Positions 45,031-64,000 of a DNA stretch of 64,000 nt are shown here, piece after piece. A program made the translations under genes and the position numbers. Under the pieces are notes generated by a model. That model worked only from the letters and a program-made list of their open reading frames with translations. It was not told the origin of the DNA and searched no databases. This stretch comes from Myxococcota bacterium (lineage in GTDB: Bacteria; Myxococcota_A; SURF-8): positions 2,080,001 to 2,144,000 of the forward strand of contig OZ223209.1 in assembly GCA_965140415.1 (NCBI GenBank), written 5' to 3'. How positions within the stretch are numbered: the stretch's first letter is position 1; the number at the start of each line of letters is the position of its first letter.

Positions 45031-45117
45031 GCCGAAGTGGCGGAATTGGTAGACGCGCTAGGTTCAGGGTCTAGTATTCGCAAGGATGTGGGGGTTCGAG
45101 TCCCCCCTTCGGCACCA
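45031..45117 (+). tRNA. tRNA-Leu (anticodon CAG)
   Basis: Acceptor stem GCCGAAG/CTTCGGC+ACCA, D-loop GGAATTGGTAGAC, anticodon arm CTAGG-TTCAGGG-TCTAG, long variable arm, GGTTCGAGTCC. Confidence 0.97.
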
Positions 45118-48082: not shown

Positions 48083-51000
48083 TCAACCATCCGTACCGGT
48101 GGTCTTAAGAATTTCAATAATGTTTATCTCGATGTTTTCCTCGTTCTCCACAATGACAGGTGGCGGGCTTTCAAGCGAATCAAAGTGGACCACTCTGTCA
48201 CCTCGTATGACTTTGTTCATTCGTTTACTCCACGTCATCATTTGTTCCCAATGCTCGATGTCCAGGTTGTAAATCATAGGGCGGGCGGTCTTACCATTCA
48301 CCGTGACAGATTTCTGTTCTGAATGAGTTTTTAATCCAAAAAATTGGAAACACTTCCCGAGTACCGCCACCGGGTTGGACTCTAGTTGTTTCATATTGAT
48401 GCCGGTCCCCTGCAAGGCATAAAGTGCATTCGGGACTTTCCCCATGACCCGGTTCACCCGCTCTATGCCGCCACCGGCAACCAGCGAGTGCTTATTCCAT
48501 TGGATTGTTAGGGATGGATGCAAAGGGGCCGGATCAAATATATATAGGATATTATCTCTTGGTACCGCCCCTTTGCAGTTGGGTAATGTATTGTTATCAT
48601 TAGATAATAAGGGTGCAAATAGGCTATCCGCAAATTCTTTACAAAGTAGGGTCTGTATGATCGCTTTTACCAACACCATCCTAAGTGTGTGAGCCTTGGA
48701 ATGCGCTCGATAGCCAGTCAGCATTGTCATCTGATCCTGATAGGTAGCTGCGTCACGTAATCGATCCATCATTAATCCGCATTGAATGATCCGCATGATC
48801 TTTTTGGAAAGATTCCGGTCTTTGTCCATCAGTACCAGATCGGCATCCACTTCTCCGAAAAATCCTAGGATCCTCGCCCGTTCCACTTCCAACTTTTCCT
48901 CCGGTGTTTTCTCTCGTTTGATTTTCAGTTTCCCATACTCATCCAAGGTCAATGGCTCAGCCATTGCAATCGATATGGCATATTCCTTGTCAGTTTGGTT
49001 TCTCAGATCCTGTATTTCTCTGCGGATCCATCGCCGGTTTGCATCCGAGGTAGGTGTTGCTTCGCTTTGTTTCGCCCCCTTTGATTCCCACCACCACTTC
49101 CAAACAGCGGGAACATTATGCCAACCCTTTCGTCTATAAAGTTCAGCCGATATGGAAAATCTGAAATGTGCGCTATCATCTACGTCATAGACAGGTTTCC
49201 CGCCCTTCATTAAAAACCGTCCTGCAAACCTGCTTGTATGATGATGGACGGACAATAATTGTTTTTCAACGTCCTTCAGGTTAAGAGGCTGATAATTACG
49301 AAATCCGGGGCTAATCCAATAGTGAATGGTTTTCATCTCACGGCAACGATGCCGCATCTGTAGCAGGGTACGGACATTCATCCCCGCCACCCTTTCGCCG
49401 ATAAAAAACAGGTGATCGAATCTGTCTGATGGATCCGATGGATCGTAGCTGATACCTGTATCCAACGTGGGTGTATACATCAATAGATCCACCTCTTTCC
49501 AGTGCTCTCCCACATTCGAAAGCATCTTTCGAGTGCTGTCATCCGTCTCTTTATGATAGGCAAGGATGGCTATGGGTCTGCTCTCACCCGAGGTTTTGTC
49601 GGTAATATCGAAAAACCATTTTCTGAAAAACCTCTCTAGACCTTTCAAGTACTCCTTTGAGGTGCAGGCAACGACACAGCGCTCACCGGCATTCAATTTC
49701 TGGATAACCTGATAGACGATATCCTCTTTCTTTTTATATTCGATGCTCTCATGGTCATCGAGGGGGATGCTATGTTGAATTACATCAATGTCCTGATCGG
49801 TAAGACCCGCCATGTCCCGAATCACATTTTCAGTGAAATCCGATGCGAAACCATCCGTAGCAATGATTCTTCCTCCACTCATCACCGAGGCTTTCAGTAA
49901 TAGACTCAAATGATCATATACTTCGCCAGTATTGGCTCTATACCCCCGTGCGCTCTTCGGGATTGTCCCACCGTCCATATGCAACATGACACTTTCAGAT
50001 TCTTCAATGATTACAAGATCAAATCCATTACCAACCCATTGATCATTCTCATATCGGATTGGAGGGATACGTGTGATTGAATCCAGACAGATCACAACAC
50101 GATCCTCGATAATGTCTCCCTCTTGCAAGTCCTGATAGCATACCAATCCAAATTCTTTTGAAAGGGATCGTGCCAGCGATACCCTGTGGACGATAGCGAG
50201 GATTCTTTTATGCTGTGGATTGTCTTGAATCAGCTTCTGCAATTGGTAGGTTTTACCGGTGCCGGTATCAGCGGCAATAATGGTAAACGCTTTCTGCAAA
50301 TTGATGGGGGGCAGATACCGAGAGCATGATGCCAGATGCGAGGACGGGGGAGCCTTGATGGAATATTGATCGGCATCGGATACAAACCAGAATTCTTCAC
50401 AGCTAAAACAATGAATAAAGGGAGAACCATTGGGAGTAAGCCCCAAAGATGCGGATGGCGTGTTCGTATTCATATGAAATGGGCAGAATACGGACAAGGT
50501 GCTCCCCCCCGCTGTCAGACTGGATGCAGCTTGTTCAACAGTGGTGGTTGTCCCATCTGCCAGTCTGACAGGTGTGGAACCGGGGATACTTTCTCCCTTT
50601 GTATTTATTGGGTTACTTCCGGTTTTCTCAGCCTTTACATGTGACGGACTCCTCCTGCTATCATCTAGCAGATCTGCAAGTTCGCGCTGTTCATCATTAA
50701 TAGTAAGGTTCTTCCGTAATGTCTTAGCCAAATCAAGACATTCCATCCCCCGCTCGGTCTCATTGGTTTTTGATGCAACCTTTTCCATTCTCTCCGCTTC
50801 GGATATCGCATCAAAGGCCAGATCAACATCCGTAACGCCCCGTGCGGCAAGGAGAGATTGTAATTTTTGCAGAAATACTTCTGGTGGGTAGGGATGATTT
50901 TGGGCATAAAGGGATGTCTGGATGCGGACTGGACCGGTTTCCTCATGATAGGAATTGTATCCAAGGACACCGGATGTTCTCATCAACCGATCCGGGTTGG

Positions 51001-51646
51001 TAATCCTAGAATCCGAACCGAACACAACCACTAAGTGGCGCTGTATATCATCAAACAGCTTTACGTCATCCTCAACCCCCATATCCAATAGCCGATCTGA
51101 TACAAAGAATCCATGTACGCTCTTTCCCGGTACCACCCGTTCCGGTTGAACCTGAGCCGCCTTTATGGATTCTTCTCGCCTGTCCCCCGAAAGAGTAAGC
51201 AGGGTTGGTAATAAACCCGTGGCAGCTACGAATTCATTGATGGATTGAATTTGGGACTCGATACTTGCATGATCCGCCTCAAAAGGAAAAGCGGACACAT
51301 ACCTTATATGAGACTTGGATAATCCTGCTCGATATTTAATTGCCGTATCACCGACCTCATTATATCGGCTTCTGACATCCAATGGATCGTAGAGGTTGCC
51401 GCAGAAATAGTGTCCGGTCAAACCGGGCAGATGACCGAACCAAAACAGGAGGTCTCCATTCTTGGATATCGCCGAGTTACCTTTTGGATCGGTCCCGAAA
51501 TATTTTATTTTATTCCTCAGATGCCGGTACAGTTCCGTGAATGCGGTCTCTGGTGAGATCGCCCCGAAAATGGGCAGGTTATCAGGATCAATAAGTTTCG
51601 ATTGAGTAATACTTTGGCTATTATTCTGGGTATTATAGATAGACAT
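48083..51646 (-). CDS. Replication protein: RepB/AEP-like primase, CHC2-like Zn finger and SF2 origin-binding-type helicase
   Basis: FEAD, GKSVHGFF, DSRITNPDRLMR; CPFH...CFSC; Walker A ADTGTGKT, HRVSLA, VICLDSI, LVIIEESE, YTPTLDTGIS, QMRHRCR. Confidence 0.8.
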   Translation of the reverse strand: MSIYNTQNNSQSITQSKLIDPDNLPIFGAISPETAFTELYRHLRNKIKYFGTDPKGNSAISKNGDLLFWFGHLPGLTGHYFCGNLYDPLDVRSRYNEVGDTAIKYRAGLSKSHIRYVSAFPFEADHASIESQIQSINEFVAATGLLPTLLTLSGDRREESIKAAQVQPERVVPGKSVHGFFVSDRLLDMGVEDDVKLFDDIQRHLVVVFGSDSRITNPDRLMRTSGVLGYNSYHEETGPVRIQTSLYAQNHPYPPEVFLQKLQSLLAARGVTDVDLAFDAISEAERMEKVASKTNETERGMECLDLAKTLRKNLTINDEQRELADLLDDSRRSPSHVKAEKTGSNPINTKGESIPGSTPVRLADGTTTTVEQAASSLTAGGSTLSVFCPFHMNTNTPSASLGLTPNGSPFIHCFSCEEFWFVSDADQYSIKAPPSSHLASCSRYLPPINLQKAFTIIAADTGTGKTYQLQKLIQDNPQHKRILAIVHRVSLARSLSKEFGLVCYQDLQEGDIIEDRVVICLDSITRIPPIRYENDQWVGNGFDLVIIEESESVMLHMDGGTIPKSARGYRANTGEVYDHLSLLLKASVMSGGRIIATDGFASDFTENVIRDMAGLTDQDIDVIQHSIPLDDHESIEYKKKEDIVYQVIQKLNAGERCVVACTSKEYLKGLERFFRKWFFDITDKTSGESRPIAILAYHKETDDSTRKMLSNVGEHWKEVDLLMYTPTLDTGISYDPSDPSDRFDHLFFIGERVAGMNVRTLLQMRHRCREMKTIHYWISPGFRNYQPLNLKDVEKQLLSVHHHTSRFAGRFLMKGGKPVYDVDDSAHFRFSISAELYRRKGWHNVPAVWKWWWESKGAKQSEATPTSDANRRWIRREIQDLRNQTDKEYAISIAMAEPLTLDEYGKLKIKREKTPEEKLEVERARILGFFGEVDADLVLMDKDRNLSKKIMRIIQCGLMMDRLRDAATYQDQMTMLTGYRAHSKAHTLRMVLVKAIIQTLLCKEFADSLFAPLLSNDNNTLPNCKGAVPRDNILYIFDPAPLHPSLTIQWNKHSLVAGGGIERVNRVMGKVPNALYALQGTGINMKQLESNPVAVLGKCFQFFGLKTHSEQKSVTVNGKTARPMIYNLDIEHWEQMMTWSKRMNKVIRGDRVVHFDSLESPPPVIVENEENIEINIIEILKTTGTDG

Positions 51647-52457: not shown

Positions 52458-52719
52458 TCTTTGCTAGAATTTATTCGTCCATAGCAGACCTGATTCCATC
52501 CCGCCCCGTGGGACTGACGGACTGACTACCCGTGATCGGATGAATCGGAGAGGTTGTGGACAGACAAACAGCCAAGCTCGACGCGCACCCATATGCGCTC
52601 GTGCTAGTCACACGTGCGCCTCTAGGGCGGGGCGCATGGAATGGGCTTGGCTGGTTCTGTGTTGCCCCGTTATTGTTTTATGGGGCACTTACCAATCCAT
52701 TGCTGCCTGGGGTGTCGTC

Positions 52720-55335
52720 ATGAAAAGTATTTTCTTCATTTCTCTTGCAATATTAGTTCTAAACGGATGCAGCTCATCATTATCAACATCCTCACATTAT
52801 TCAGATGGAGATGAATGTTCTACAGGCTCACTCGGTTGCCCCTGTTACGGTAACGGCACCTGTGATAATGACCTCTCCTGCGTGGACGACACTTGTGTAG
52901 ATCCGACAAACCTTGATGGTGATCTGGATTATGATCATGAATCCTATGCCGATGCTGAGAATGTATTAGACAGTGATACCGATAATCTACTGTGTGTGAG
53001 TGGAGAATGTTGTCAAGACGGCCTCCCTGTACCAACTGGTGAACCCTGTCTTACCGGGCAGGATTCATTAGATTGTACCGATGATGTTTGCAATGCCAAT
53101 CATGCCTGTGTTCACAACCTGCAAGAAGGAAAATGTCTGATTCAAAATATCTGTTATGACTCCAACGAGGATAATCCATCGAATTTCTGTCAATATTGTG
53201 ATCCGTTGGACAATCCCAACGAATGGCAGAATAAACAGGATTCTCTTTCCTGTGATGATGGGGATCATTGCTCAACAGCTAGCGTATGTCAGAACGGATT
53301 TTGTACCGCTACAGAATGGGTGGAGAATGATTGTTCTGTATATATGGAATGCGGTCTAAGCCCCTCCGGTTGTTATAACTGCGGAACTTGCGATGCGGAA
53401 ACACAGATTTGTTGGGAGTGTGATTCAACGATTCAATCGTGCTGGCCAGGAGAGGGAATCGATACACAGGTTTGTGCACCAGACAAAGGAGGATCGTGTG
53501 GGGATATGAGTGGCTTGCAGGAAGGGAGCCCTTGGCCGATGTGGACAGGAAGCCCAACCAACCAGTCCCGGTCTTTATTTGTTGGTCCACAAACCCCTGT
53601 TCTTAAATGGGTTCTTTCATCAGATCAATGTGATAATTGCTATCGAAGCACAGTTATTGGAAATGATGGAACTTTGTACTCAAACCTAAATGATTTATAT
53701 GCACTGAATCCCAACGGTACTGTAAAATGGGTTTATTCGTTTGATTCTATTTCCGCAACATGTCCAGCAATAGCTGCAAACGGGGATATTTTAGCGGCTC
53801 AACCGGGAGAGATAGTTTCCGTATCGAGATTTGGAAAATTAAATTGGTCGTTTTCTGCAGGAGGCGATCATGCTGCTGGGATATCTATTGGTGAGGATGG
53901 AACAGTTTATGCCTGTGGTGGTGGAGGCAGCTCAAATATTTATGCCATTTACCCTGATGGTTCAGAAAGATGGACATACAACACAGGTGGACATACATGG
54001 GGAGTTCCTGTACTTTCCCCTGATGGAACCATTTATACAACTACACAAAGCCACAATCGAATTATTGCATTGAATCTAGACGGAGAACGTATTTGGCAAA
54101 GGGACAACGATGGATATTCCCATCTCGTTTCGCTTGGGTATGATGGAACAATATACTCGCCTCAAGCTGGAGGTATATTAAGGGCTTTGGAACCCGGGAA
54201 TGGTGATACAAAATGGATTACTCGATTAGAAGAAAGTCCTGGTGGACTTGGAGCAATAGGAAATGATGGAACAATCTATTCGGCAACGAGAAACGGTGGG
54301 GGAATGTACGCCATTCATCCCGATGGACAAATTAAATGGAAAAATGAAGAGTTAAAGGATGCCTATTCCTCGATAAGTGTAGACTCTGATGGCAATTCCT
54401 ATGTAGGCACTCAAGAGGGAAAAATTTATGTTTTCGATGTTGCGGGTAATACCAAGTGGTCCTATCAGACAGAGGCCCCCATTCGAAGCATACCTTCTAT
54501 TGATATGGAAGGAACTCTCTATTTTTCAAACGATAGGGCTTTATATGCATTCCAAGACGGTTGCACTCCCAACGAATCATGGTGTGGTGCGGACAACCTC
54601 TATACCTGTAACGAAACCGGGGATGGCTTGGCTGGCGATCCGGTAGATTGTCCCGGTGGATGCAACTGGGGAAGTTGCATGGATAAAGGGTCTATGCTTT
54701 CAGAAATTCGATATCACGGAGCAAGCATTCCCGTTTCCGATTCCATTGGATTTGACAGTCTGAATTTGACGATAGAATTTTGGCTGAAAACCGGATACCC
54801 CAAAACAATTCTTTACAAGGGCGAATATTTCAGAGACTCAACCAATTACACGGTTCGATTGCTAGATTGTGCCGATGATGATTCTTGTAATCTATTCTTT
54901 GGGATGCGTTACGAAGGGGTTGACTATTCATGGAGGGCACCGGTAGAAAAAGACCAAACGGTCTGGAGACATTTTGCTGTTGTGGCTGACAATGAAAGTC
55001 AGAGTCTGAAAATGTTTATGAATGGTAGTGAGCTTACATTAACCGAGTTTCCTGAAAACTGGCCAGCAGGTATGCTTCGAACAAACGAGGCACTAAAGAT
55101 AAATATGCTGGAAGGAATTTACTATATCGACGAACTCCGTATTTCCGATGTCCCACGCTATTCAGAGAATTTCATTCCACCCCTACGTCATGTACCGGAT
55201 GGCAATACCCAATTGCTACTTCACTTTGATGAGGGCACGGGGGATGTAGTCCACGATTCTTCTCCCTATGAGAACCACGGAGAATTGACAGGCAGTGCTT
55301 CTTGGTCGGAGGATGTACCGGGTGGTACGAGATGA
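52720..55335 (+). CDS. Cys-rich lipoprotein with PQQ-like beta-propeller and LamG-like jellyroll domain
   Basis: Lipobox LNGC; Cys-rich repeats; repeated (I)G.DGT(I/L)Y...YA..PDG..KW blades; TIEFWLK...WRHFAVV...IDELRISD. Confidence 0.8.
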   Translation: MKSIFFISLAILVLNGCSSSLSTSSHYSDGDECSTGSLGCPCYGNGTCDNDLSCVDDTCVDPTNLDGDLDYDHESYADAENVLDSDTDNLLCVSGECCQDGLPVPTGEPCLTGQDSLDCTDDVCNANHACVHNLQEGKCLIQNICYDSNEDNPSNFCQYCDPLDNPNEWQNKQDSLSCDDGDHCSTASVCQNGFCTATEWVENDCSVYMECGLSPSGCYNCGTCDAETQICWECDSTIQSCWPGEGIDTQVCAPDKGGSCGDMSGLQEGSPWPMWTGSPTNQSRSLFVGPQTPVLKWVLSSDQCDNCYRSTVIGNDGTLYSNLNDLYALNPNGTVKWVYSFDSISATCPAIAANGDILAAQPGEIVSVSRFGKLNWSFSAGGDHAAGISIGEDGTVYACGGGGSSNIYAIYPDGSERWTYNTGGHTWGVPVLSPDGTIYTTTQSHNRIIALNLDGERIWQRDNDGYSHLVSLGYDGTIYSPQAGGILRALEPGNGDTKWITRLEESPGGLGAIGNDGTIYSATRNGGGMYAIHPDGQIKWKNEELKDAYSSISVDSDGNSYVGTQEGKIYVFDVAGNTKWSYQTEAPIRSIPSIDMEGTLYFSNDRALYAFQDGCTPNESWCGADNLYTCNETGDGLAGDPVDCPGGCNWGSCMDKGSMLSEIRYHGASIPVSDSIGFDSLNLTIEFWLKTGYPKTILYKGEYFRDSTNYTVRLLDCADDDSCNLFFGMRYEGVDYSWRAPVEKDQTVWRHFAVVADNESQSLKMFMNGSELTLTEFPENWPAGMLRTNEALKINMLEGIYYIDELRISDVPRYSENFIPPLRHVPDGNTQLLLHFDEGTGDVVHDSSPYENHGELTGSASWSEDVPGGTR

Positions 55336-55486: not shown

Positions 55487-56104
55487 CTAACAGGTGATGG
55501 ACTGTACAGCAGTCAGAATGTCATCGGTCGTAGGATGCGTATAGATCGCCGTTGTCGAGGGAGAGGAATGTCGAACAGCGCTTTGTACGAGGCGTAGATC
55601 CCCGGTAGCTCTCCATAAGGCTGTGGCGTATGTGTGCCTAAGGGCATGAAAATTATGAATCCGGTCAAATCCAGATCTCTTCTGCCATCTATGAAACATA
55701 TGCTGGATAGTCCTGACACTGATACGTCCACCGGATTTCTTGCTAGCAGGACCGCCGCCTCTTGATAGAAACAGCGGAGCATTGGGTTCAAGACTCTCAC
55801 CGATGGCTCTCTTATAGGTAATGTACCTTGAAACTTTCCTTCTCAGGCGATCAGGCAGGGCAATCACACCGCCCTTGTTGCCTTTGGTAATCTCCGGTCT
55901 GAGGTTCCAGATACCCCGGACGCCCTTCCCGTTAAGCACATCCCCGATGTTGAGACCTACGATCTCACTCACCCGTAATCCACAGCCTAAAGCAATACTC
56001 AGGATTATATGGTCCCTTATATCAGCCTCAGCCCTTCCGGTTGCCTGCAAGAGAGCCTTTACCTCGGCATCCGTCAATGTGCTTGGTGTTTGGGTATGTC
56101 TCAT
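55487..56104 (-). CDS. Short tyrosine recombinase (catalytic domain only, FimB/FimE-sized)
   Basis: GLRVSE, TKG, FHALRHTYA, VRHSS, IYTH; 205 aa. Confidence 0.9.
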   Translation of the reverse strand: MRHTQTPSTLTDAEVKALLQATGRAEADIRDHIILSIALGCGLRVSEIVGLNIGDVLNGKGVRGIWNLRPEITKGNKGGVIALPDRLRRKVSRYITYKRAIGESLEPNAPLFLSRGGGPASKKSGGRISVRTIQHMFHRWQKRSGFDRIHNFHALRHTYATALWRATGDLRLVQSAVRHSSPSTTAIYTHPTTDDILTAVQSITC

Positions 56105-56340
56105 GTGCTGCCTTTCAGATGATCCCTCTATATATAGTTACACCAATATACTCACAATTTAAAGTATTATTTTAAAGCCATACACCAATAGCTCGTAACC
56201 GCAGGGTAAACCCAATGATCGGGGACCCGACCCCCAAAATCACCAATTTAGTCTCCACCCATTTTCTCTCTATCGATTTTGAAACGGTCCCCACCATCGG
56301 TATAGGCTTTATAGGAATGGTCTTGATAGGAGGTACTATT

Positions 56341-56658
56341 ATGTCAGAATACCGCAGCATAAAGAGTCAGGAAAAGTTGGACAGAATCCTGCATGACCTT
56401 TTTGATTTTATCCGCAATGAACCCGATAAGACCCGTCAATCATTTGTATCATGGCTAGTAAAGGAACTCGGATTCAGGTTCGATATGGATGTAAAAGTCA
56501 TGCCACCACAGGACATCAGCAAGCTGATAACATACCAGCGAAACACACTCTGGACTTTCAAATCCCTGTTGGAGAACCCGGCCATGCGGGGACAAGCATA
56601 CGAGCAAATCCATGAGCTTCTGCATGATTTGCTAAACTACATGCAGAGGAATCGGTAA
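56341..56658 (+). CDS. Hypothetical protein
   Basis: ATG after AGGAGG; 105 aa. Confidence 0.55.
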   Translation: MSEYRSIKSQEKLDRILHDLFDFIRNEPDKTRQSFVSWLVKELGFRFDMDVKVMPPQDISKLITYQRNTLWTFKSLLENPAMRGQAYEQIHELLHDLLNYMQRNR

Positions 56659-56869
56659 AACGAACTCTCTCCACTCTTGACAGAGCTTTCCTGTGAACTT
56701 AGAAACAATACAATCTGCTTATAATATCCCCCTCGGAAAACACTTGAAACATTAAGGTCTTATCCGACAAGGATGGCTTTTTACTCAATATTGTGCTATC
56801 TTGACCCTAGATGATCTGAGACATTTTTGCTGTAATTCAATCAATTTAATCGGGGTGGAGACGGTTGAT

Positions 56870-58510
56870 ATGCCTAAAACTTCGAAATCCAATGCGAAAG
56901 TAAAGTCAACGGGAACCAAGCAAGACAAGATCGTAACTCCCAAATCTCGTACAAGCGCTTGTATCAACTTTCCAAGTCCCGATAGATACGCAGCAAAAGC
57001 AGCGAGAGTAATCATCCGCATAGAAGAGATTGCTGAAAAAAGCAGCATGTCAAAAGCACTGGAAATCGGTCGTTTTCTATTGGACGAATATTTTGGGGGA
57101 TCGGTCCAAAAATACAAGCAACGGGTGAAAAAAGCGGATTCCGCAAGCAATATTCAGTTTGATTATCTACTGTCCCTACCGAAACTCCAGGCGATTGGCT
57201 TGTCTCCTGTAACGTTGCGAAACTACATCAAAGTCGCTGGATATTATCCTGATTATCCGAAAGGAATTCGAGAGAACCTCCCCCTCGGAATTCAACAGGA
57301 ACTGGCGAGGATTACAAACAAACAAAAGCGCTTGGCTCTTGCAAAACGTGCGGTTGAAGAGAACTGGACATTTAGAAAAGCCAAACAAATTATAAGTGGT
57401 GAAAACGAAAACCATCGAGGCGGGGAAACAACCAATAGGGAATTCGATTTGGATTCCATCGACAAAATGATGCTCCGAATATGGGATAAATTGATATCTA
57501 CACAGAATGAACAATTACTCTCCGAAGCGCTTGGCAGAATAACCTTGCTCAATAAGCAGTTGCAGGGGGGACAACAGGTTTTATTGCATTCCTCTCCAAT
57601 CATTTTGAAATCCCAACCTCCAAAGAACAAACTTCCCATACCGTTCAGCTATTTCGGGGGAAAAAGCAAGGTCTGTAATTACTTGATTGATTGTATTAAA
57701 AGCTACTACGAGAAAACAGGAAAGGATTGGAAACTTTGTGAGGTCTTCGCTGGTGGTTTCTCTGTCTCTCAAGCAGCATTGGCTGATGGCTTTGTTGATA
57801 AGGTCTGGCTTAATGACCGAGATCCCCTCAATCAAGCATTTGTGAATTCCATTTACTATGACCATGAAAGATTGATCGAGGCTGTGTTGGCGGTCGAGGT
57901 GACCCACGAAACGCTCAGAGATAAAAGACTAGCCTTGAAAACAGGACTCTATGACAGCTGGTATTACGACGAATCACATGTTTACGACGAAGTGGTTTCA
58001 AGACTCATCATGTGGGAATGCAATATTATGAGCAAACCCGAAGGAATAACCTGGCAGGAGGGAGATCCTTCCAGATGGAATCCTGAACGAGTAGCAAATA
58101 GCATCGAGAAATTGCATTATATGCTACAGGGGCATATCGATGGAAGAGAGATTTCAGGTAGGGATTTTCGAGATATCCTTTTAGGAGACGCAATGAAAGG
58201 GAACCAAGATCTTTTTTTGTATCTTGATCCTCCATATATCCGATCCAAGTACCGACAGTATAAACACAATCTAACGGATGAGGACCATAAAACACTGGCG
58301 AGTATTCTCAATAAGGTCAAAGCCCCTTGGTTGATGACCATAGACGACCATCCAATGGTCGCCTATCTGTACCATCTCAATCACCGCGTGGAATGGATAA
58401 AAAACCGGGGAGAATATTGGATATGCTCTGGTTTGCATGAAAGCATTCTGGATCCAATTCTGAAATATGCTCAAATAAGTGAGGAGTCACCAGAATCGGG
58501 AGTGGCGTAA
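56870..58510 (+). CDS. Dam/D12-class N6-adenine DNA methyltransferase with a long N-terminal helical extension
   Basis: PFSYFGGKSK, EVFAGGFSV, LND, YLDPPY. Confidence 0.85.
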   Translation: MPKTSKSNAKVKSTGTKQDKIVTPKSRTSACINFPSPDRYAAKAARVIIRIEEIAEKSSMSKALEIGRFLLDEYFGGSVQKYKQRVKKADSASNIQFDYLLSLPKLQAIGLSPVTLRNYIKVAGYYPDYPKGIRENLPLGIQQELARITNKQKRLALAKRAVEENWTFRKAKQIISGENENHRGGETTNREFDLDSIDKMMLRIWDKLISTQNEQLLSEALGRITLLNKQLQGGQQVLLHSSPIILKSQPPKNKLPIPFSYFGGKSKVCNYLIDCIKSYYEKTGKDWKLCEVFAGGFSVSQAALADGFVDKVWLNDRDPLNQAFVNSIYYDHERLIEAVLAVEVTHETLRDKRLALKTGLYDSWYYDESHVYDEVVSRLIMWECNIMSKPEGITWQEGDPSRWNPERVANSIEKLHYMLQGHIDGREISGRDFRDILLGDAMKGNQDLFLYLDPPYIRSKYRQYKHNLTDEDHKTLASILNKVKAPWLMTIDDHPMVAYLYHLNHRVEWIKNRGEYWICSGLHESILDPILKYAQISEESPESGVA

Positions 58511-58512
58511 TG

Positions 58513-59334
58513 CTAAATACATAATTCCCATTCACATTCTTGACTATCCAGTATATTCGCTGCAAGTTGAAAACGGATTAGCCAGTCAATGTGTTCTTGA
58601 TTTAGAAATTGAAATTCCTCCTTAAAAGTAAATCTCTGATCTAAAACCGAAGATATTTCTCGTGAAGACGTTACAATTTGAAGTTCAAATAGCCCAAGGT
58701 TGTCTATATTAATTACGAAATGAACAGCTCGATAGGGATCCTGATGATAACGAGATCTTGGATTGAAATAATAGTTTCGACACCGTGAAATGTAATCAAT
58801 ATCGTGCATCCAGATAGAAACGCTCAAATCCAATAAAGCTTGAAGAGATGGAACAACAATTCGATATCGTACTAAATCCCAGAACGGAATCACAAATTCT
58901 CGTATCTGATCGGGAATCCGGTTACCTTTAAATTTCTTTGCTACTGATTCTGCGGATTTTAAACCACCATACCAGCAAACTATTGCTTCTCTAGGAACAT
59001 ATCCAATGTATGATTCAACCCGCTGATGAGCGGCTCTATCAACCTCACGGCGATGGTCCATATCGTACAACATATTCAACCATATTCTCGAATATGAGCA
59101 TAGAGGCTTCATTCCCACTTCTTGGACTCGTACAAACTGTCGTCTAACTCTATCCGTTTCATGAGCATGGATTGAATTAAGGATTTCCGTATTTTGTTCT
59201 GCTGTTTTGTCAATCATCAAAGCACGATGAAAGAATTCTTCGCGCCTTATTGGCGATCTTCCTTCCAATAACTCGCTGAAATTGTAATCTTTTGTTTCCA
59301 GGAGTTTCAAATGATTTCGTAAGTAGCTTTTCAT
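58513..59334 (-). CDS. RelA/SpoT-like small alarmone synthetase domain protein (divergent)
   Basis: LKSAESVAKK, DLVRYRIVV, NYYFNP...YRAVH, ELQIVT, LDQRFTFK occur in synthetase motif order. Confidence 0.72.
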   Translation of the reverse strand: MKSYLRNHLKLLETKDYNFSELLEGRSPIRREEFFHRALMIDKTAEQNTEILNSIHAHETDRVRRQFVRVQEVGMKPLCSYSRIWLNMLYDMDHRREVDRAAHQRVESYIGYVPREAIVCWYGGLKSAESVAKKFKGNRIPDQIREFVIPFWDLVRYRIVVPSLQALLDLSVSIWMHDIDYISRCRNYYFNPRSRYHQDPYRAVHFVINIDNLGLFELQIVTSSREISSVLDQRFTFKEEFQFLNQEHIDWLIRFQLAANILDSQECEWELCI

Positions 59335-59346
59335 GAGTTTTAATAT

Positions 59347-60252
59347 TTACGATAATTTCCCTTTTAATTTAAGTACATGCTCAACTCTAGGAACCAAACT
59401 TATTAGCGTAATTCTCTCTCCCATCACACGCATACGTAAAAAACCTTGATACATTAGCGTTTTCGCTCGGTAATACAGTTCATCTGCAATCATTTCAGTT
59501 ACGGGGCCTTGATTAATCATTCCTATAGATAGGTTTATTCGCTCAAGCAGGTCATCAACCGAAATCTCATCTCCTTCTGCTTGGCTATTGATGAGCTTTA
59601 TAATTTGTCTTTGGGTTCCAGTCATATCGCTCCATAGTTCGAGAATAATTCTTTCGTATTGCGGGTCATCAACTTTTGGAATTCTGAGAGTGGAATAGGA
59701 ATCGTGATAATTCGGTTCCGGCACCTCGGGAACTTTGACAGTGGAGACCAAGTGCCAAATCGATTTGGCGAAAGTTTCGAGTTTATCACGTCCATCTATT
59801 CCTGTATTTGTTCTTCCCCTCATTTGGTGCCAATCCAGGTATAATCTTGAAAGTAGATCTTCCTTCCATGTCTTAACATCATCACCACAAAATCCTTCAG
59901 TATTATTCACATCTATATAAAGTATGGGTAATATCAAATCGGATCTTCCTATTAATCTCTCTTGTTCTCTAAACCACAAGTATTCCTTATGACACCAATC
60001 ACTTTGAAAGTAGGTTGGAGAAAGAATTGGTACCATGCAACAACTTGTACTGATAAGGTGATGGATCCTAGTTTCTAGGTTTTGACCGTGTCTAACATTG
60101 AGACTGTCAATCATTAGATTTATTCTAGAACCGTGCAGCACTTCGATTGCTTTATGCAATCGATTCCTTAGGCTAGTTATCTCATTCTTATCATAGTCAT
60201 CAGCTGTCCTAGAATAACTCCAAAAAACCGAACCGAATTTTGGGGTATCCAT
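59347..60252 (-). CDS. TIR domain protein with a C-terminal winged-helix-like domain
   Basis: VFWSYSR, ILSPTYFQSDWCHKE (catalytic Glu position), ILPILY; GAGGAGG RBS. Confidence 0.85.
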   Translation of the reverse strand: MDTPKFGSVFWSYSRTADDYDKNEITSLRNRLHKAIEVLHGSRINLMIDSLNVRHGQNLETRIHHLISTSCCMVPILSPTYFQSDWCHKEYLWFREQERLIGRSDLILPILYIDVNNTEGFCGDDVKTWKEDLLSRLYLDWHQMRGRTNTGIDGRDKLETFAKSIWHLVSTVKVPEVPEPNYHDSYSTLRIPKVDDPQYERIILELWSDMTGTQRQIIKLINSQAEGDEISVDDLLERINLSIGMINQGPVTEMIADELYYRAKTLMYQGFLRMRVMGERITLISLVPRVEHVLKLKGKLS

Positions 60253-60265
60253 CAGCGCCCTCCTC

Positions 60266-61189
60266 TTAACATTTCGCAGCATATTTTAAAGTATGAATAA
60301 ACAGTTTGTGCTGAACTAACTTAAGATCTCTCAGTAATGATGGATAAGGCATGTCACAATCATTAGGCCTAATTGACGAATGGATTGTGCAATTTCTATT
60401 TGCGACCTGTGCTATCACCTCTGTTTTGTCGATAACAGCACGCAGAGCAACGGCAGTCTTCTCTAGATGTTTCACATAGTTGATTTTTAATGGAGAATTC
60501 CACAATCTAGCTCGTAACCATCTGTAGATCGTCCTTACTAACTCAAATTGAACAGAACCACCAGGGCCATGCTTTGGATCTGAAAAGGACTGGTCAGATA
60601 AAGCCCACCAACCATGTAAATACCTATCTAACTCTAATAGTTTGTTAAGATGCATAGGAACGGTATTCAGCATGGCTTTGTCAACTATCCTACAAAACTG
60701 ACTATATAATAAAGTATCCCCATCTGCAAGTTTACTGTTGGCGACGATCTGCCAAATTCTTCCATCAAGACAATCCTTTTCTAAACTCTTGACATCATAA
60801 AACAATACTGAAACTTTGCGATCTAATAAGTTGCTTAATTGTATCTTAATTTTGTTTCGCAATTCATCAGAATACAGTGGAGGAATCATATGAACGCCAA
60901 CTAAATCGATATCAGAATAATGTGATGGTGTCCCACGGGAGTATGAACCTGACAACAAAATAGTAATACTGTAGTTAACACATAAGCGTTTTATCTCAAG
61001 TGAAATTGCTTGTTGGGCTGATGCCAACAATGGTGCTACGATTCCATTGAAAAGAATAATGGCTTCTTTATAATAGCTATAATCGACAATTCTTTGTATT
61101 GTGGCTTGTACATGTGTAGAATTGAAAGAATTTTCTGAAAGGATCTGTGAAACATCTTGTTTTAAAGTGAGTTGGCAATTTTCGCCCAT
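60266..61189 (-). CDS. Pol-beta superfamily nucleotidyltransferase, GlnD/GlnE-like
   Basis: LSGSYSRG...SDIDL and downstream DPKHGPGG..QFE, similar to the GlnD/GlnE K.G.GG.RD.E motif. Confidence 0.75.
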   Translation of the reverse strand: MGENCQLTLKQDVSQILSENSFNSTHVQATIQRIVDYSYYKEAIILFNGIVAPLLASAQQAISLEIKRLCVNYSITILLSGSYSRGTPSHYSDIDLVGVHMIPPLYSDELRNKIKIQLSNLLDRKVSVLFYDVKSLEKDCLDGRIWQIVANSKLADGDTLLYSQFCRIVDKAMLNTVPMHLNKLLELDRYLHGWWALSDQSFSDPKHGPGGSVQFELVRTIYRWLRARLWNSPLKINYVKHLEKTAVALRAVIDKTEVIAQVANRNCTIHSSIRPNDCDMPYPSLLRDLKLVQHKLFIHTLKYAAKC

Positions 61190-61294
61190 GTTAATATCCT
61201 AAAACACTCGGAAGATCTGTTTAATACCAGAAACAGGCAATTCAACTAGTGGTCAAAAAGAATGCTCATCACCAATATCAATTAGTTAGCTAAT

Positions 61295-64000
61295 TCATAT
61301 AGAAACATCCAATACGAATGATTTTATCGTGTATGGTGGCTTGGAAAGATTTTTTGCTTCAGCTTCAAAATGCTTTATTGTCTGCTCCAAATCGTCATCG
61401 TGTTTGTGCTTCCCCATTTTTTTACGGTGTTTAGGGCAATCTTCATCCCAATCCTCACAGCAATACCAGCCAATAAGGTAAATTCCACTGGTGCAGGCGT
61501 ATTCATTGAGATACTGACCCAACAATTGATTTTCCATTGCTGTTTGCAAGTCTTTATTCCAGCATCCTTTGCACTCAATAATTACTGTTAATGGGTTTGA
61601 TTCATTTACACAAGGTACTTCTATTTTTATATCAGTTTTATCCTCTACATTTATAAGCGGTTCTCGATTGACAATAATATTTGATTGTTTTAGGTCATCT
61701 CGCAAATCGTTGGCGATGATTCTTGAAAATTCAAGTTCACCTTTGGATCTGTACGGCTTGTTGGTCCAAAAATCGAGATTGTGCCTTATCTGATTGTTTG
61801 ATATCTTTGCCTGTATTCTTGTAAGAGATTCTAGTACTATCGCTTGCAGGTCTTTTTCGGTGTTTACGATTCGCTTTTTGGGGTCTGAAAATAGAGCAAA
61901 CAATTCTCTCATTGTTGGGGGATTCCATGAATTCGCGATTAGGTTTTGTTTGGCAACTGGCACTCTCCATTTTAGCCAGTTTATTTCAGGAAACTCTTCT
62001 GAAAGTGTTTCGAGAATATTCACTCCAGCTTGAGTGTTTTTATTGTATATTTCCTCAAATATCATTTCACGAATTCTAGTTATATGCTGTCTGCTTGAAA
62101 CGATGCCATTTGGGGGAGGGGGATCTTCATTGTAAGGAAATATCTTGGTAAGGGAAATAAAGATTTTACCCAATATCTCTTCATCTGCATTTTCGAAGAA
62201 ATATTGGAAATATGAGCCGTGATTGTTTGCCAGTGACATGAAGAATTCTTTTCCAAACTCATCATTCCTGTTAATTGCATCAAGGATTTTTGTTACTGAT
62301 ACTATAGGGCGAAAGCGAAATAACGCCTTTGCGGCATATACAGCTATTCTCTGTAATGGATCATCGTTACTTGGAACTCGTTCGATAATGTCCAAAGCAT
62401 AATCCATCACTTCGGTACCGGATCCGTTTTCAAGTATTGTTTCTAAGATGTCAAAAAAGCATTCTGGACGTAGAGAATTTTCATATGCTTTTAAAGTTAA
62501 GGCTTTTTCGAAATCAGGATTCCATACCAGCTTGACCCGTTTAGGAACGGTTCTTGTCAAATCATTCCCATTACTATTCCCATCAATTATCGATATGAGG
62601 TAATCAGTCATTTTGGTTTTTGATATTGAGATAGCTTTTGTCAATAAGGGGGCAATTGCAACTTCATCGTCCCTGTTTCTTACTAACGGCATTTTCCACA
62701 GGACAGAGTTCCATTTTCTTAAAATATAGCCATCATTCGAATCCAGTATTTCTGGAGACACATCTGCAATTAGTTTTAGTGCAGCATATCCATAAGCCAT
62801 TTCGTTTGTAATATCTCTTGTTCTTATCCATTGGTCTGTTAGAGGATCTTGCTTTTCAAGATATTCAACTGCTATTTTTATATAACAGTCTCTCTCAACG
62901 CTATTAGCCGTGACCCAACCTGGTGATTGTGACAAATTCTTCAGTTTCTGAATGGATGGAGATGGAGAGGAGGATTTCGATTCTCGTGTTAACTCTGATG
63001 CGATGTTATTCCATAATTCGGTTTTCCCTTTGCTCTTAATATGTTTTAAGCAACGCTCAATTTTCTCTTTAGGATCAAGCCATTCCGATGTCATTTGAGG
63101 AATATGTGATATTTCTTTTTCAGATTCACGTTTTCGTGATTTAATTTCTTTCCCCGAAAAACAGCTAAAAATAGATGCAAGAGTATTGTCATCTTGAAAT
63201 GTACTGTACAATTCTTGTTTTTGCTCATCCTTGAAGTGACGGAAAATGTCCCTTAGTATAATTCCCCATTTCTCCCTTTCATTATGGGTATGTATTGAGC
63301 TTAGCTTTTCAATGGCCCAGCCAGAGTCTTCCGTTAATAAAACAAAATGATAGGTGTGATAGTTTTGCTCTGGAGAATATTCTGTTCTTTGCACCAATTC
63401 AGAAAACAGAATTCGTCTCGCTTTGCTATCTTCTTTTAGTATATCAGCGACTACATCATTATTTATGAACCTCCACTGATTAACAATTGTTTCTCCTTTC
63501 AATAATGTTTCAGCTAGTTTCCCTGCGACCTGCTCGTTTTCGATAAACTTCAATGACTTTTCGAAAATCTGTTCTGGTAGTCTTGCATAGTCGGAGTTGT
63601 CCCATTTATCAATTAATTGAGTCCAGAGAAGTGCATATATGAAATCCTCCTCTTTTAATTTTTCAGGTAGTTCATAGAGGAAGCTACGGTAGCTACCGCT
63701 GAATCTATTGTTTTTTATTGGAGTTATTAAGGTGAATAATTCTAAGGTTGAAAGTGTGTTAGGCCACAGTCGATTAAATACATTGCCCTTTAAAGTATCA
63801 TTAAGATCGGAGTCTGAATCTTCTTCAATGAGGGGTTTAAGGTTTAGTAAACTATCTTCACTGCCTATCTTGCAGATCGTTTCTGAAGCAACACAGCGAA
63901 TTTCATAGACCTCATCTTTATTGAGGGCGACCTCCAAGATATCATTCTGTATATCTAAGCAGTTACACTGCTTTGCAAATTCAATAGCAAAATACCTTGT
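61295..64000 (-). CDS. Large helical-repeat protein with a C-terminal PD-(D/E)xK-like nuclease domain; 5' end outside the window
   Basis: Frame is open to the window edge; C-terminal NRE...TDIKIE...IIECKGCWN...QL...YL...GIYLIGWY. Confidence 0.65.
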   Translation of the reverse strand, partial: TRYFAIEFAKQCNCLDIQNDILEVALNKDEVYEIRCVASETICKIGSEDSLLNLKPLIEEDSDSDLNDTLKGNVFNRLWPNTLSTLELFTLITPIKNNRFSGSYRSFLYELPEKLKEEDFIYALLWTQLIDKWDNSDYARLPEQIFEKSLKFIENEQVAGKLAETLLKGETIVNQWRFINNDVVADILKEDSKARRILFSELVQRTEYSPEQNYHTYHFVLLTEDSGWAIEKLSSIHTHNEREKWGIILRDIFRHFKDEQKQELYSTFQDDNTLASIFSCFSGKEIKSRKRESEKEISHIPQMTSEWLDPKEKIERCLKHIKSKGKTELWNNIASELTRESKSSSPSPSIQKLKNLSQSPGWVTANSVERDCYIKIAVEYLEKQDPLTDQWIRTRDITNEMAYGYAALKLIADVSPEILDSNDGYILRKWNSVLWKMPLVRNRDDEVAIAPLLTKAISISKTKMTDYLISIIDGNSNGNDLTRTVPKRVKLVWNPDFEKALTLKAYENSLRPECFFDILETILENGSGTEVMDYALDIIERVPSNDDPLQRIAVYAAKALFRFRPIVSVTKILDAINRNDEFGKEFFMSLANNHGSYFQYFFENADEEILGKIFISLTKIFPYNEDPPPPNGIVSSRQHITRIREMIFEEIYNKNTQAGVNILETLSEEFPEINWLKWRVPVAKQNLIANSWNPPTMRELFALFSDPKKRIVNTEKDLQAIVLESLTRIQAKISNNQIRHNLDFWTNKPYRSKGELEFSRIIANDLRDDLKQSNIIVNREPLINVEDKTDIKIEVPCVNESNPLTVIIECKGCWNKDLQTAMENQLLGQYLNEYACTSGIYLIGWYCCEDWDEDCPKHRKKMGKHKHDDDLEQTIKHFEAEAKNLSKPPYTIKSFVLDVSI

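What the first reader, a model, noticed from the sequence alone, without database searches (positions are those of the whole stretch)
58513..61189. Candidate new defence/toxin system: nucleotidyltransferase + TIR-wHTH + RelA/SpoT-like synthetase operon
Seen: three co-oriented genes separated by only 13 and 12 nt, in the most AT-rich part of a tRNA-integrated island. They encode a GlnD/GlnE-like NTase (GSYSRG..SDID), a TIR domain with its catalytic Glu, and an alarmone-synthetase-fold protein. Established: TIR domains (Thoeris, CBASS and Pycsar effectors), pol-beta NTases (CBASS, MNT-HEPN, AbiE) and toxic small alarmone synthetases (toxSAS, CapRel) each act in anti-phage or toxin-antitoxin systems. 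I do not know a described system combining all three. Inference: one model is a nucleotide-signalling abortive-infection module in which the NTase nucleotidylates and restrains the SAS or TIR until phage infection. Another is that one enzyme makes a messenger that activates the TIR NADase.
Basis: partly seen in the sequence, partly recalled or inferred. Interest (0 to 1): 0.88.

Follow-up and report, generated by a model that had tools for sequence, protein, structure and literature searches.

The report
Three-gene TIR, nucleotidyltransferase, alarmone-synthetase cassette
A rare, horizontally moving three-gene cassette joins a cell-killing module (an NAD-cleaving TIR domain, or in relatives a membrane-spanning domain) to two nucleotide-handling enzymes, and it looks like an undescribed and untested anti-phage or toxin system.

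Summary
Three co-oriented minus-strand genes, 13 and 12 nt apart, lie in the AT-rich part of a ~30-kb island bounded by a 59-bp repeat of tRNA-Leu. They encode a GlnD-type nucleotidyltransferase (NTase), a TIR-winged-helix (wHTH) protein with the catalytic Glu, and a divergent RelA/SpoT-fold small alarmone synthetase (SAS).

The SAS has no Pfam hit itself. A profile of its family matches solved SAS enzymes (E 5e-10), and its AlphaFold model (pLDDT 92.9) matches SAS1/SAS2 and CapRel.

The triplet recurs in the same order in 16 of 26 loci retrieved with the SAS (14 of 24 distinct). These come from several phyla, always tightly packed, and lower in GC than their flanks in 13 of 13 loci.

New here: in 4 distinct loci the TIR domain is replaced by two transmembrane helices while the wHTH tail is kept. 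This marks the middle protein as the swappable killing effector.

None of the three proteins is a member of a PADLOC 2023 or NCBIfam 2026 family, and nine literature searches found no description.

The most likely reading is an abortive-infection-type system in which nucleotide chemistry from the SAS and NTase controls the effector through its wHTH domain. The mechanism and the defence phenotype are untested.

The parts
60266..61189 (-). GlnD-type Pol-beta nucleotidyltransferase, 307 aa. Catalytic motif G81 S82 ... S92 D93 x D95 (D93 = 60911..60913, D95 = 60905..60907), followed by a helical domain with the K206-x-G208-GG motif.
   Evidence: invariant columns in 14 orthologues; profile matches to ANT(4')-II, MntA and DrrA; hhalign to E. 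coli GlnD, probability 90.9%.
60258..60265 (-). Shine-Dalgarno-like GAGGAGGG five bases upstream of the ATG at 60252 of the middle gene.
   Evidence: Read directly from the sequence.
59347..60252 (-). TIR-wHTH effector gene, 301 aa from the ATG at 60252. The longest ORF starts at 60282 and would overlap the NTase gene by 17 nt.
59737..60228 (-). TIR domain (about residues 9-172), with the conserved catalytic-type Glu E90 at 59983..59985.
   Evidence: Pfam TIR E 1e-10 and TIR_2 E 2.5e-10. Glu present in 12 of 12 TIR-type proteins.
59350..59658 (-). Winged-helix (wHTH) C-terminal domain (about residues 199-301). Residues T213, Q214, E258, R262 and L266 are invariant in 17 sequences.
   Evidence: AF2 pLDDT 86.9; Cdc6/Orc1 WH Z 11.5; RosR, TubR, MarR, ArsR, Csa3 wHTH.
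58513..59334 (-). Divergent small alarmone synthetase-like pyrophosphokinase, 273 aa. It has a family-specific N-terminal helical part (about residues 1-110) and a RelA/SpoT synthetase core. K126, D153 (58876..58878), N187, Y201, E217 (58684..58686) and Q219 are invariant in 73 relatives.
45031..45117 (+). Context: tRNA-Leu(CAG), the integration site of the ~30-kb island that carries the cassette. The matching 59-bp repeat lies at window coordinate 75051..75109, outside the window.

Best explanation
The three genes form one conserved, horizontally mobile cassette that most likely acts as an abortive-infection-type anti-phage or conflict system.

The middle protein is the killing effector. Its N-terminal module is either a TIR NADase (as here) or a pair of transmembrane helices (in relatives). 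Its constant C-terminal winged-helix domain is the control or receiver domain.

The two flanking enzymes supply the control. The RelA/SpoT-fold enzyme transfers pyrophosphate from ATP to the 3'-OH of a nucleotide, making an alarmone-like messenger such as a (p)ppApp/(p)ppGpp-type molecule. The wHTH domain senses this messenger and switches the effector on. The GlnD-type NTase sets the threshold by covalently nucleotidylating the synthetase or the effector, as GlnD, GlnE and MntA do with their protein targets.

Shown: the gene structure, the folds, conserved catalytic residues in all three enzymes, conservation of the triplet, the TIR/2TM exchange, mobility and rarity. Inferred: the defence role, which enzyme makes the signal, the signal's identity, that the wHTH is its receptor, and the NTase's target.
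For: (1) Conserved unit. NTase, then [TIR or 2TM]-wHTH, then SAS occur in the same order and orientation in 16 of 26 loci fetched with the SAS (14 of 24 distinct). Neighbouring genes within each cassette are at most 30 nt apart or overlapping (in L004 a second middle-gene copy lies between the NTase gene and the copy that was measured). One further locus (L015) has middle gene plus SAS at a contig end.

(2) The three proteins diverge together. Mantel r is 0.30-0.39, and 15-39 of 2000 permutations reach it.

(3) Effector swapping. 5 of 16 middle genes, in 4 loci, replace the TIR with two hydrophobic helices but keep the wHTH. This is the pattern of CBASS, Pycsar and Pucsar effectors (known from the literature; the Pucsar abstract appears in the listing).

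(4) All catalytic motifs are kept. SAS: K126, D153, Y201, E217 and Q219 are invariant in 73 sequences. NTase: GS..SDxD is invariant in 14. TIR: the Glu is present in 12 of 12.

(5) Five wHTH residues, three of them on the putative recognition helix, are invariant across phyla. The domain is near neutral in charge, net -3 to +5. Both fit a conserved ligand or partner better than a species-specific operator.

(6) The NTase is GlnD-type, a family that nucleotidylates proteins (established knowledge).

(7) Context and mobility. The cassette sits in a tRNA-integrated island beside an EruA/HyoA-like NACHT gene (NCBIfam E 8e-70) and an RHS toxin gene. Cassette GC is below flank GC in 13 of 13 loci. 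The SAS was found in 0 of 40 relatives, and the wHTH in 0 of 400 other genomes of one phylum sample.
Against: No phenotype, product or binding has been measured.

Neighbours of the related cassettes are mostly housekeeping genes, IS elements or integrases. Scattered PADLOC matches (dGTPase, DrmD, ThsB, PbeA, DndH, HerA, pVip) each occur in 1 of 55 ORFs, and no enrichment test was possible.

No winged-helix domain is established as a receptor of an immune nucleotide signal; the fold is generic and usually binds DNA.

Two nucleotide-transferring enzymes are more than a simple signal-effector scheme needs, so the assignment of roles between them is a guess.

The SAS family lacks the Arg of the usual R-x-K motif and the Arg of E-x-Q-x-R-T. 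Its substrate may therefore differ from that of known alarmone synthetases, and toxSAS enzymes are themselves toxins.

Four distinct, more distant SAS relatives, and the closest one (L010, with an IS fragment upstream), occur without the other two genes.
Confidence: 0.5

Rival explanations
1. Three-component toxin-antitoxin module of the toxSAS kind. The SAS is the toxin, acting by tRNA CCA-end pyrophosphorylation or (pp)pApp synthesis. The GlnD-type NTase is a type-VII-like antitoxin that neutralises it by nucleotidylation. The wHTH protein is an autoregulator or a second, coupled toxin.
For: The SAS fold also matches CapRel, a tRNA pyrophosphokinase (rank 22). Tight two- and three-gene operons are the hallmark of toxSAS TA systems (PMC7229694, passages seen). 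The NTase profile matches MntA antitoxin structures (E 1e-4; NCBIfam MntA 20 bits).
Against: A pure regulator does not explain why the middle protein carries a TIR with its catalytic Glu, or two TM helices, in every case. The MntA score is far below the family cut-off of 60. There is no HEPN, Panacea or SAH partner. SAS pI ranges from 5.4 to 10.3 (6.8 in the window), so the protein is not uniformly basic as an RNA-binding toxin would suggest (weak evidence).
Confidence: 0.2
2. Inverted 'guard' signalling, as in Panoptes. The SAS makes its nucleotide constitutively, and the bound nucleotide keeps the TIR or 2TM effector off. Phage alarmone hydrolases or nucleotide sponges deplete it and release the effector.
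For: 2TM-type effectors and a small stand-alone nucleotide-making enzyme are also the parts of Panoptes (abstracts of PMC12657218 and PMC13712596 in the listings). Phage-encoded alarmone hydrolases that counter toxSAS are reported in PMC7229694 (passage). No obvious phage-sensor domain is present in the cassette.
Against: There is no direct evidence. The SAS carries a conserved N-terminal extension of about 110 residues that could itself be a sensor. This model leaves the NTase without a role.
Confidence: 0.12
3. Thoeris-like system. The TIR protein senses infection and makes an ADPR-derived signal, which activates the SAS as the toxic effector.
For: TIR proteins are signal producers in Thoeris. 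There are weak matches to ThsB-type models (PADLOC ThsB1 E 6e-4; NCBIfam ThcB4 E 4e-4).
Against: In 4 distinct loci the TIR is replaced by two TM helices with the rest of the cassette unchanged, and a membrane anchor cannot make an ADPR signal. The scores lie far below the family cut-offs. The systematic survey of TIR systems does not mention RelA/SpoT, alarmone or nucleotidyltransferase partners in its main text.
Confidence: 0.05
4. Not a conflict system. The cassette is a niche stress or metabolic regulatory module, in which local alarmone signalling is controlled by a GlnD-like switch and happens to be carried on mobile DNA.
For: GlnD and RelA/SpoT enzymes are classic physiological regulators. 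Many neighbours of the related cassettes are housekeeping genes.
Against: The distribution is sporadic across phyla, with 0 of 40 relatives carrying it. GC is lower than the flanks in 13 of 13 loci. The cassette carries a TIR with catalytic Glu, or a 2TM module. In the window it lies in an island beside NACHT and RHS genes.
Confidence: 0.08

Closest known systems
toxSAS toxin-antitoxin systems (CapRel, FaRel, FaRel2, PhRel, PhRel2)
   Same: A small, stand-alone RelA/SpoT-fold synthetase in a tight mobile operon, implicated in abortive infection. The fold match includes CapRel.
   Different: There is no Panacea, SAH or fused antitoxin. The partners here are a GlnD-type NTase and a TIR/2TM-wHTH protein, neither of which is mentioned in the main text of PMC7229694. 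The sequence is too divergent for Pfam RelA_SpoT. It has an extra N-terminal helical part and lacks the usual R-x-K and Q-x-R-T arginines.
Pycsar / Pucsar / CBASS nucleotide-signalling systems
   Same: A nucleotide-making enzyme is paired with an effector whose killing module alternates between TIR and transmembrane helices while a constant receiver domain is kept.
   Different: The candidate signal maker is a pyrophosphokinase of the RelA/SpoT fold, not a cyclase or CD-NTase. The receiver is a winged helix, not a cNMP-binding, SAVED or STING domain. A second enzyme, the GlnD-type NTase, is always present. No PADLOC CBASS or Pycsar model matches.
MntA-HepT (type VII TA) and GlnD/GlnE/DrrA protein nucleotidyltransferases
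   Same: A Pol-beta NTase with GS..SDxD. The profile matches MntA and DrrA structures and aligns with GlnD residues 68-232, including the K-x-G-GG motif.
   Different: It has no HEPN partner and no HD or ACT domains of GlnD. It scores 20 bits against the MntA cut-off of 60. The match to GlnE covers only a 34-column motif (probability 20.6%).
Thoeris (ThsB TIR proteins)
   Same: A bacterial TIR domain with the catalytic Glu in a small defence-island operon.
   Different: No known Thoeris effector is present. The TIR is exchangeable for 2TM, so it acts as effector and not as signal maker. The family scores are far below the cut-offs.
Panoptes (mCpol + 2TM effector)
   Same: A small nucleotide-making enzyme with a 2TM-type effector, and possibly inverted logic.
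   Different: The enzyme fold is different, the receiver is a wHTH, and there is an extra NTase. The comparison rests on abstracts seen in search listings only.

Membership tests
RelA/SpoT homologue (RSH) synthetase superfamily | Synthetase fold | tested here: met
   AF2 pLDDT 92.9. Foldseek top hits are B. subtilis SAS2/SAS1 and S. aureus RelP, E 1.4e-5 to 4e-5. Family profile against RelQ/RelP/YjbM chains, E 5e-10 to 7e-8.
RelA/SpoT homologue (RSH) synthetase superfamily | Catalytic motif residues: Lys of the K-x-x-S-x-x-x-K region, Asp of D-x-x-x-x-R, Tyr-x-x-x-His, and Glu-x-Gln | tested here: met
   K126, D153, Y201, E217 and Q219 are invariant, and R158 and H205 are at least 90% conserved, in 73 sequences. 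They align to the same motifs of RelQ and RelP. The assignment of each residue's role is recalled from the RSH literature.
RelA/SpoT homologue (RSH) synthetase superfamily | Pfam PF04607 at its gathering score | tested here: not met
   The window's protein has no Pfam hit at E <= 0.01. 57 of 73 relatives hit PF04607 at E <= 0.01, best 9.8e-11.
toxSAS toxin-antitoxin systems | Toxicity of the SAS neutralised by an adjacent antitoxin | not testable with these tools
   This needs co-expression assays.
toxSAS toxin-antitoxin systems | A known antitoxin type (Panacea/DUF4065, SAH, fused pseudo-ZFD) beside or within the SAS | tested here: not met
   No such family appears in the Pfam, NCBIfam or PADLOC scans of the three genes.
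TIR domain NADases | Pfam TIR above the gathering score, and the conserved catalytic Glu | tested here: met
   PF01582 scores 42.2 bits against 21.3, and PF13676 scores 41.4 against 28. E90 is present in 12 of 12. NADase activity itself was not tested.
Thoeris | ThsB-family TIR with a known Thoeris effector (ThsA etc.) in the operon | tested here: not met
   PADLOC ThsB1 E 6.4e-4 only. NCBIfam ThcB4 scores 19.5 bits against a cut-off of 220. No ThsA-type gene is present. The TIR is exchangeable for 2TM.
Pol-beta nucleotidyltransferase (NTP_transf_2) | Pfam PF01909 at its gathering score, and the G-S ... [DE]-x-[DE] motif | tested here: met
   22.1 bits against 21. 13 of 14 orthologues match. 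G81, S82, S92, D93 and D95 are invariant.
GlnD/GlnE-type protein nucleotidyltransferases | NTase core followed by a helical domain with the K-x-G-x-GG motif | tested here: met
   hhalign of A3 against E. coli GlnD: probability 90.9%, E 1.2e-6, 153 columns. PF08335 matches 2 of 14 members, and DUF294 matches 1 of 14.
GlnD/GlnE-type protein nucleotidyltransferases | The full GlnD (HD + ACT) or GlnE (two NTase halves) architecture | tested here: not met
   The protein is 307 aa and has no HD or ACT hit. The match to GlnE covers only 34 columns, probability 20.6%.
MntA antitoxin (type VII TA) | NCBIfam NF047752 at its cut-off, and a HEPN partner | tested here: not met
   20 bits against 60. There is no HEPN gene.
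CBASS / Pycsar | A CD-NTase or a pyrimidine/purine cyclase as the signal maker | tested here: not met
   No PADLOC model of these systems matches any of the three proteins at E <= 0.01.
Winged helix-turn-helix fold | H1-b1-H2-H3-b2-b3 topology and fold matches | tested here: met
   DSSP of the model. VIA Z 11.5 to Cdc6/Orc1 WH and 10.4 to RosR. The Foldseek top rows (CodY-C, MarR, ArsR, Fur) have E 2e-3 to 2e-2.

The most novel reading that the evidence does not exclude
This would be a new class of bacterial immune signalling. The second messenger is made by a RelA/SpoT-type pyrophosphokinase instead of a cyclase or oligonucleotide synthase. It is read by a winged-helix receiver domain that drives interchangeable TIR or membrane effectors. 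It is gated by GlnD-style covalent nucleotidylation. This would make an alarmone-like 3'-pyrophosphorylated nucleotide a dedicated antiviral messenger, either activating or, as in Panoptes, inhibitory.
Probability: 0.3. Interest if true: 0.85.

Novelty: new variant of a known kind. Interest (0 to 1): 0.72.

Why it matters
If the cassette protects against phage, it would add a new enzyme class (RelA/SpoT fold) and a new receiver domain (winged helix) to the nucleotide-signalling immune systems. It would also link stringent-response chemistry, TIR NADases and GlnD-type protein nucleotidylation in one module.

The TIR/2TM exchange gives a clear effector assignment. The invariant residues in all three proteins give ready-made mutants. 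The hypothesis can therefore be tested directly with standard cloning, plaque assays and nucleotide mass spectrometry.

Even in the more conservative toxin-antitoxin reading, it would be the first toxSAS controlled by a nucleotidyltransferase.

Tried and rejected
**Complex prediction** (NTase + SAS + wHTH as partner). The verdict was 'no answer', score 0.00. This is not evidence for or against binding.

**Expression.** The sequencing-run search listed no RNA holder, so nothing was laid and nothing can be said about expression.

**Homologue searches that added little.**
- The word-indexed search with the wHTH region found only the query itself.
- The same search with the wHTH alignment among longer proteins found only two TIR-wHTH relatives.
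- The Atlas search with the wHTH gave a best score of 0.76, which is uninformative.
- The Atlas search with the NTase gave only unnamed NTP_transf_2 clusters.

**Mobile-element collections.** There were no SAS relatives in viral contigs, plasmids or phage records.

**Promoter and terminator scan of 58300..61500.** The counts did not exceed the shuffled controls, and there was no minus-strand promoter call upstream of the NTase gene.

**Neighbours as possible fourth components.** The EruA-like NACHT gene, the Dam-like methyltransferase and ORF 56215..56658 were considered. None has a BLASTP hit (E <= 1e-3) among the ORFs of the 26 related loci, so they were rejected.

**Origin of the TIR/2TM exchange.** The SAS tree could not show whether the exchange happened once or several times; 1 to 3 changes are compatible and deep forks are unresolved.

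**Charge and pI** of the wHTH and the SAS were computed as hints to nucleic-acid binding. The results are inconclusive.

**Literature.**
- Burroughs et al. 2015 (NAR), which might describe related nucleotide-centric systems, is not held. I could not check it.
- Supplementary tables of the papers read were not available. Table S1 of the TIR survey (10.64898/2025.12.03.692087) could list this configuration.
- The search for 'EruA' and 'HyoA' found no antiphage paper.
Full report
**1. The observation**

- NTase: 60266..61189, minus strand, 307 aa.
- Middle gene: 59347..60282 as the longest ORF. The ATG at 60252 is preceded by GAGGAGGG at 60258..60265. That start gives a 301-aa protein and the reported 13-nt gap.
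- SAS-like gene: 58513..59334, 273 aa, 12 nt after the middle gene's stop.

GC is 0.37-0.40 here, against 0.524 for the 5.98-Mb genome.

A tRNA-Leu(CAG) lies at 45031..45117, with an integrase next to it. A 59-bp exact repeat of the tRNA's 3' part lies at window coordinate 75051..75109, in the genome beyond the window.

**2. What the three proteins are**

*NTase*
- It passes Pfam NTP_transf_2 (22.1 bits against a cut-off of 21).
- In an alignment of 14 orthologues, G81, S82, S92, D93 and D95 are invariant, and K206 and G208 are at least 90% conserved.
- The profile matches solved ANT(4')-II, MntA and DrrA.
- It aligns with E. coli GlnD residues 68-232 at 90.9% probability (E 1.2e-6). The alignment lines up the GS..SDxD core, the 'R-l-l-G-d' segment and the 'K-x-x-P-GG' motif.
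- Against GlnE, only the K-x-G-GG motif aligns (probability 20.6%).
- So 'GlnD/GlnE-like' is right at the level of architecture. The protein is not a GlnD or MntA orthologue: it has no HD or ACT domains, and MntA scores 20 bits against a cut-off of 60.

*Middle protein*
- The TIR domain is clear (PF01582, E 1e-10). The Glu of C-x-x-E-[YF] (E90) is present in all 12 TIR-type sequences.
- The C-terminal ~100 residues fold, in an AF2 model (pLDDT 86.9, 17-row alignment), as H1-b-H2-H3-b-b.
- The best structural matches are all winged-helix domains. They include Cdc6/Orc1 WH (Z 11.5), RosR, TubR, MarR, ArsR and the Csa3 wHTH. Foldseek gives CodY-C, MarR and Fur at E 2e-3 to 2e-2.
- Five residues (T213, Q214, E258, R262, L266) are invariant in the 17 sequences.

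*SAS-like protein*
- It has no hit in Pfam, NCBIfam, PADLOC or, as a single sequence, the PDB.
- An exhaustive search found 141 representatives at E <= 1e-3.
- A profile of 73 of them matches RelQ, RelP and YjbM at E 5e-10 to 7e-8. 57 of the 73 hit PF04607.
- The AF2 model (pLDDT 92.9) has SAS2/SAS1 as its best Foldseek matches and CapRel at rank 22.
- K126, D153, N187, Y201, E217 and Q219 are invariant. They align with the catalytic motifs of RelQ and RelP.
- The family differs from classical SAS enzymes in three ways. It has a conserved N-terminal helical part of about 110 residues. It has 'Y-G-G-x-K' in place of 'G-R-x-K'. It lacks the Arg of 'E-x-Q-x-R-T'.

**3. Is the triplet a unit?**

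Scans with the SAS alignment returned 8 loci from species genomes and 18 from metagenomes. Two pairs of loci are identical (L005 = L013, L011 = L012), which leaves 24 distinct loci.

HMMs built from the first hits sort the 26 loci as follows.
- 16 loci (14 distinct) have the NTase, the wHTH protein and the SAS in the same order and orientation.
- One more (L015) has the middle gene and the SAS, with the contig ending before the place of the NTase.
- Four (L009, L016, L023, L027) are fragments that cannot be judged.
- Five (L010, L022, L025, L024, L026) have enough upstream DNA but no partner genes.

Of those five, L010 is the closest relative (42% identity) and has an IS-type transposase fragment directly upstream. 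The other four are the most distant SAS sequences and sit in other contexts. On the SAS tree they form a separate group (support 87/97).

Further support for a single unit:
- Neighbouring genes within each cassette are at most 30 nt apart or overlapping. In L004 a second copy of the middle gene lies between the NTase gene and the copy that was measured, hence the 590-nt figure.
- Pairwise distances of the three proteins correlate (Mantel r 0.30-0.39; 15-39 of 2000 permutations reach it).
- By their record titles, the hosts include Acidobacteriota, Pseudomonadota (Methylomagnum), Verrucomicrobiota, Bacteroidota and a MAG labelled Nanoarchaeia.
- Cassette GC is below flank GC in 13 of 13 loci with flanks.
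- The SAS was found in none of 40 relatives of the window's genome.
- The wHTH was found in none of 400 other genomes of the phylum of L005.
- There are no relatives in the phage, plasmid or viral-contig collections.

The window's neighbours (NACHT, methyltransferase, ORF 56215..56658) have no counterpart in the 26 loci. The unit is therefore the three genes.

**4. The new anatomical point**

In 5 of the 16 middle genes from related loci (L004, which has two tandem copies, and L006, L008, L019) the TIR domain is absent. It is replaced by about 75 residues with two hydrophobic segments. The wHTH tail, the NTase and the SAS are unchanged.

This alternation between a TIR and a transmembrane module on a constant receiver domain is the pattern of the effectors of Pycsar, Pucsar and CBASS. 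It identifies the middle protein as the killing effector and the wHTH as its control domain. It argues strongly against a Thoeris-like reading, in which the TIR would make a signal.

**5. Mechanism**

All three enzymatic motifs are under conservation, so both flanking proteins are active enzymes and not pseudo-enzymes.

The most economical scheme has three steps.
- The RelA/SpoT-fold enzyme makes a 3'-pyrophosphorylated nucleotide.
- The wHTH domain binds it and switches on the TIR NADase or the membrane module.
- The GlnD-type NTase, whose family nucleotidylates proteins, tunes the synthetase or the effector.

The invariant wHTH residues across phyla, and the near-neutral charge of the domain (net -3 to +5), fit a conserved ligand or partner better than a host-specific operator. 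This is weak evidence.

I give this scheme about even odds as a whole. I give about 0.3 to its specific form, an alarmone-like messenger read by a wHTH. The rivals are listed below.
- A toxSAS-type toxin-antitoxin module with the NTase as a type-VII-like antitoxin (0.2).
- Inverted, Panoptes-like signalling (0.12).
- A Thoeris-like system (0.05).
- A non-conflict regulatory module (0.08).

None of these is excluded by computation.

**6. Defence context**

In the window the cassette lies 105 nt downstream of a 1391-aa gene (61295..65470). That gene matches the NACHT antiphage families EruA and HyoA (E 8e-70 and 9e-62, both far below their cut-offs). Beyond it lies a 2066-aa RHS-repeat protein.

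The convergent gene 56801..58510 is a D12-class adenine methyltransferase. It also matches PADLOC PD-Lambda-5_B (E 2e-27).

Around the related cassettes, 55 neighbouring ORFs gave scattered PADLOC matches (dGTPase, DrmD, ThsB, PbeA, DndH, HerA, pVip and others), each in 1 of 55. They also include integrases, IS proteins and many housekeeping families. This is compatible with defence islands, but it is not an enrichment test.

**7. Known or new?**

No PADLOC-DB 2.0 (2023) or NCBIfam 20 (June 2026) family is reached by any of the three proteins.

Nine full-text searches found no paper that describes this combination.
- In the toxSAS paper PMC7229694, the main text holds no 'TIR' or 'nucleotidyltransferase' (term search and passages).
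- In the systematic TIR survey 10.64898/2025.12.03.692087, the main text holds no RelA/SpoT, alarmone, ppGpp, nucleotidyltransferase or wHTH (term search, outline and section 5 read).
- Supplementary tables were closed, and Burroughs et al. 2015 is not held. A mention there cannot be excluded.

It is an unchecked AI note and not independent evidence, but my own searches reach the same conclusion and add the 2TM variants.

**8. Verdict**

The 'candidate new system' reading is supported as far as computation can go: the triplet is conserved, it is not named, its effector is swappable, and it is mobile. The phenotype and the mechanism remain untested.

I rate it a new variant of a known kind (nucleotide-based abortive-infection or toxSAS systems), with interest 0.72.

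Noticed in passing
window 61295..64000, continuing to window coordinate 65470 (L001:3295-7470, minus strand): A 1391-aa protein directly upstream of the cassette matches the NACHT antiphage families EruA (E 8e-70, 236 bits against a cut-off of 1000) and HyoA. Its C-terminal ~250 residues match the C-terminal end of those families. It is a relative, not a member, and has no counterpart beside the related cassettes.
   Followed up: partly
window 56801..58510 (+): A 569-aa D12-class adenine methyltransferase with an N-terminal extension of about 280 residues. It matches PADLOC PD-Lambda-5_B (E 2e-27), with weak PDC-S02 and LmbU-like hits in the extension. It converges on the SAS gene, with only 2 nt between the two stop codons.
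   Followed up: partly
L001:7771-13971 (+), window coordinates 65771..71971, outside the window: A 2066-aa RHS/YD-repeat protein with an RHS-associated core domain, followed by two co-oriented ORFs of 332 and 469 aa. It is probably a polymorphic toxin locus inside the same island.
   Followed up: partly
window 45031..45117 and window coordinate 75051..75109: A 59-bp exact direct repeat of the 3' part of tRNA-Leu(CAG) bounds a ~30-kb island. GC falls in two steps, to about 0.45 from 46 kb and to about 0.37 from 58 kb. A second, short integrase-family ORF lies at 55487..56104 (205 aa), which suggests two accreted elements.
   Followed up: partly
window 48083..51646 (-): An 1187-aa ORF inside the island, beside the integrase. 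It was not scanned against any family library. From its sequence alone it looks like a primase/helicase-type island replication protein; this is my impression, not a result.
   Followed up: no
window 52540..55335 (+): A 931-aa protein with a Cys-rich N-terminal part and PQQ-like beta-propeller repeats (PF13360, E 6e-19), inside the island.
   Followed up: no
L004:4766-5983: One related cassette carries two tandem 2TM-wHTH genes (181 and 206 aa) between the NTase and the SAS, a duplication of the effector.
   Followed up: partly
L024:6810-8150: Near a distant SAS relative that lacks the cassette lies a 446-aa ORF whose N-terminus looks TIR-like or nucleoside-deoxyribosyltransferase-like to my eye (not tested). 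Several response-regulator-like ORFs lie nearby.
   Followed up: no
G000:C1:372967-373344 (L029): The only other match to the SAS profile in the window's genome is a 732-aa open frame (E 9e-7). It is presumably the housekeeping long RelA/SpoT homologue.
   Followed up: no
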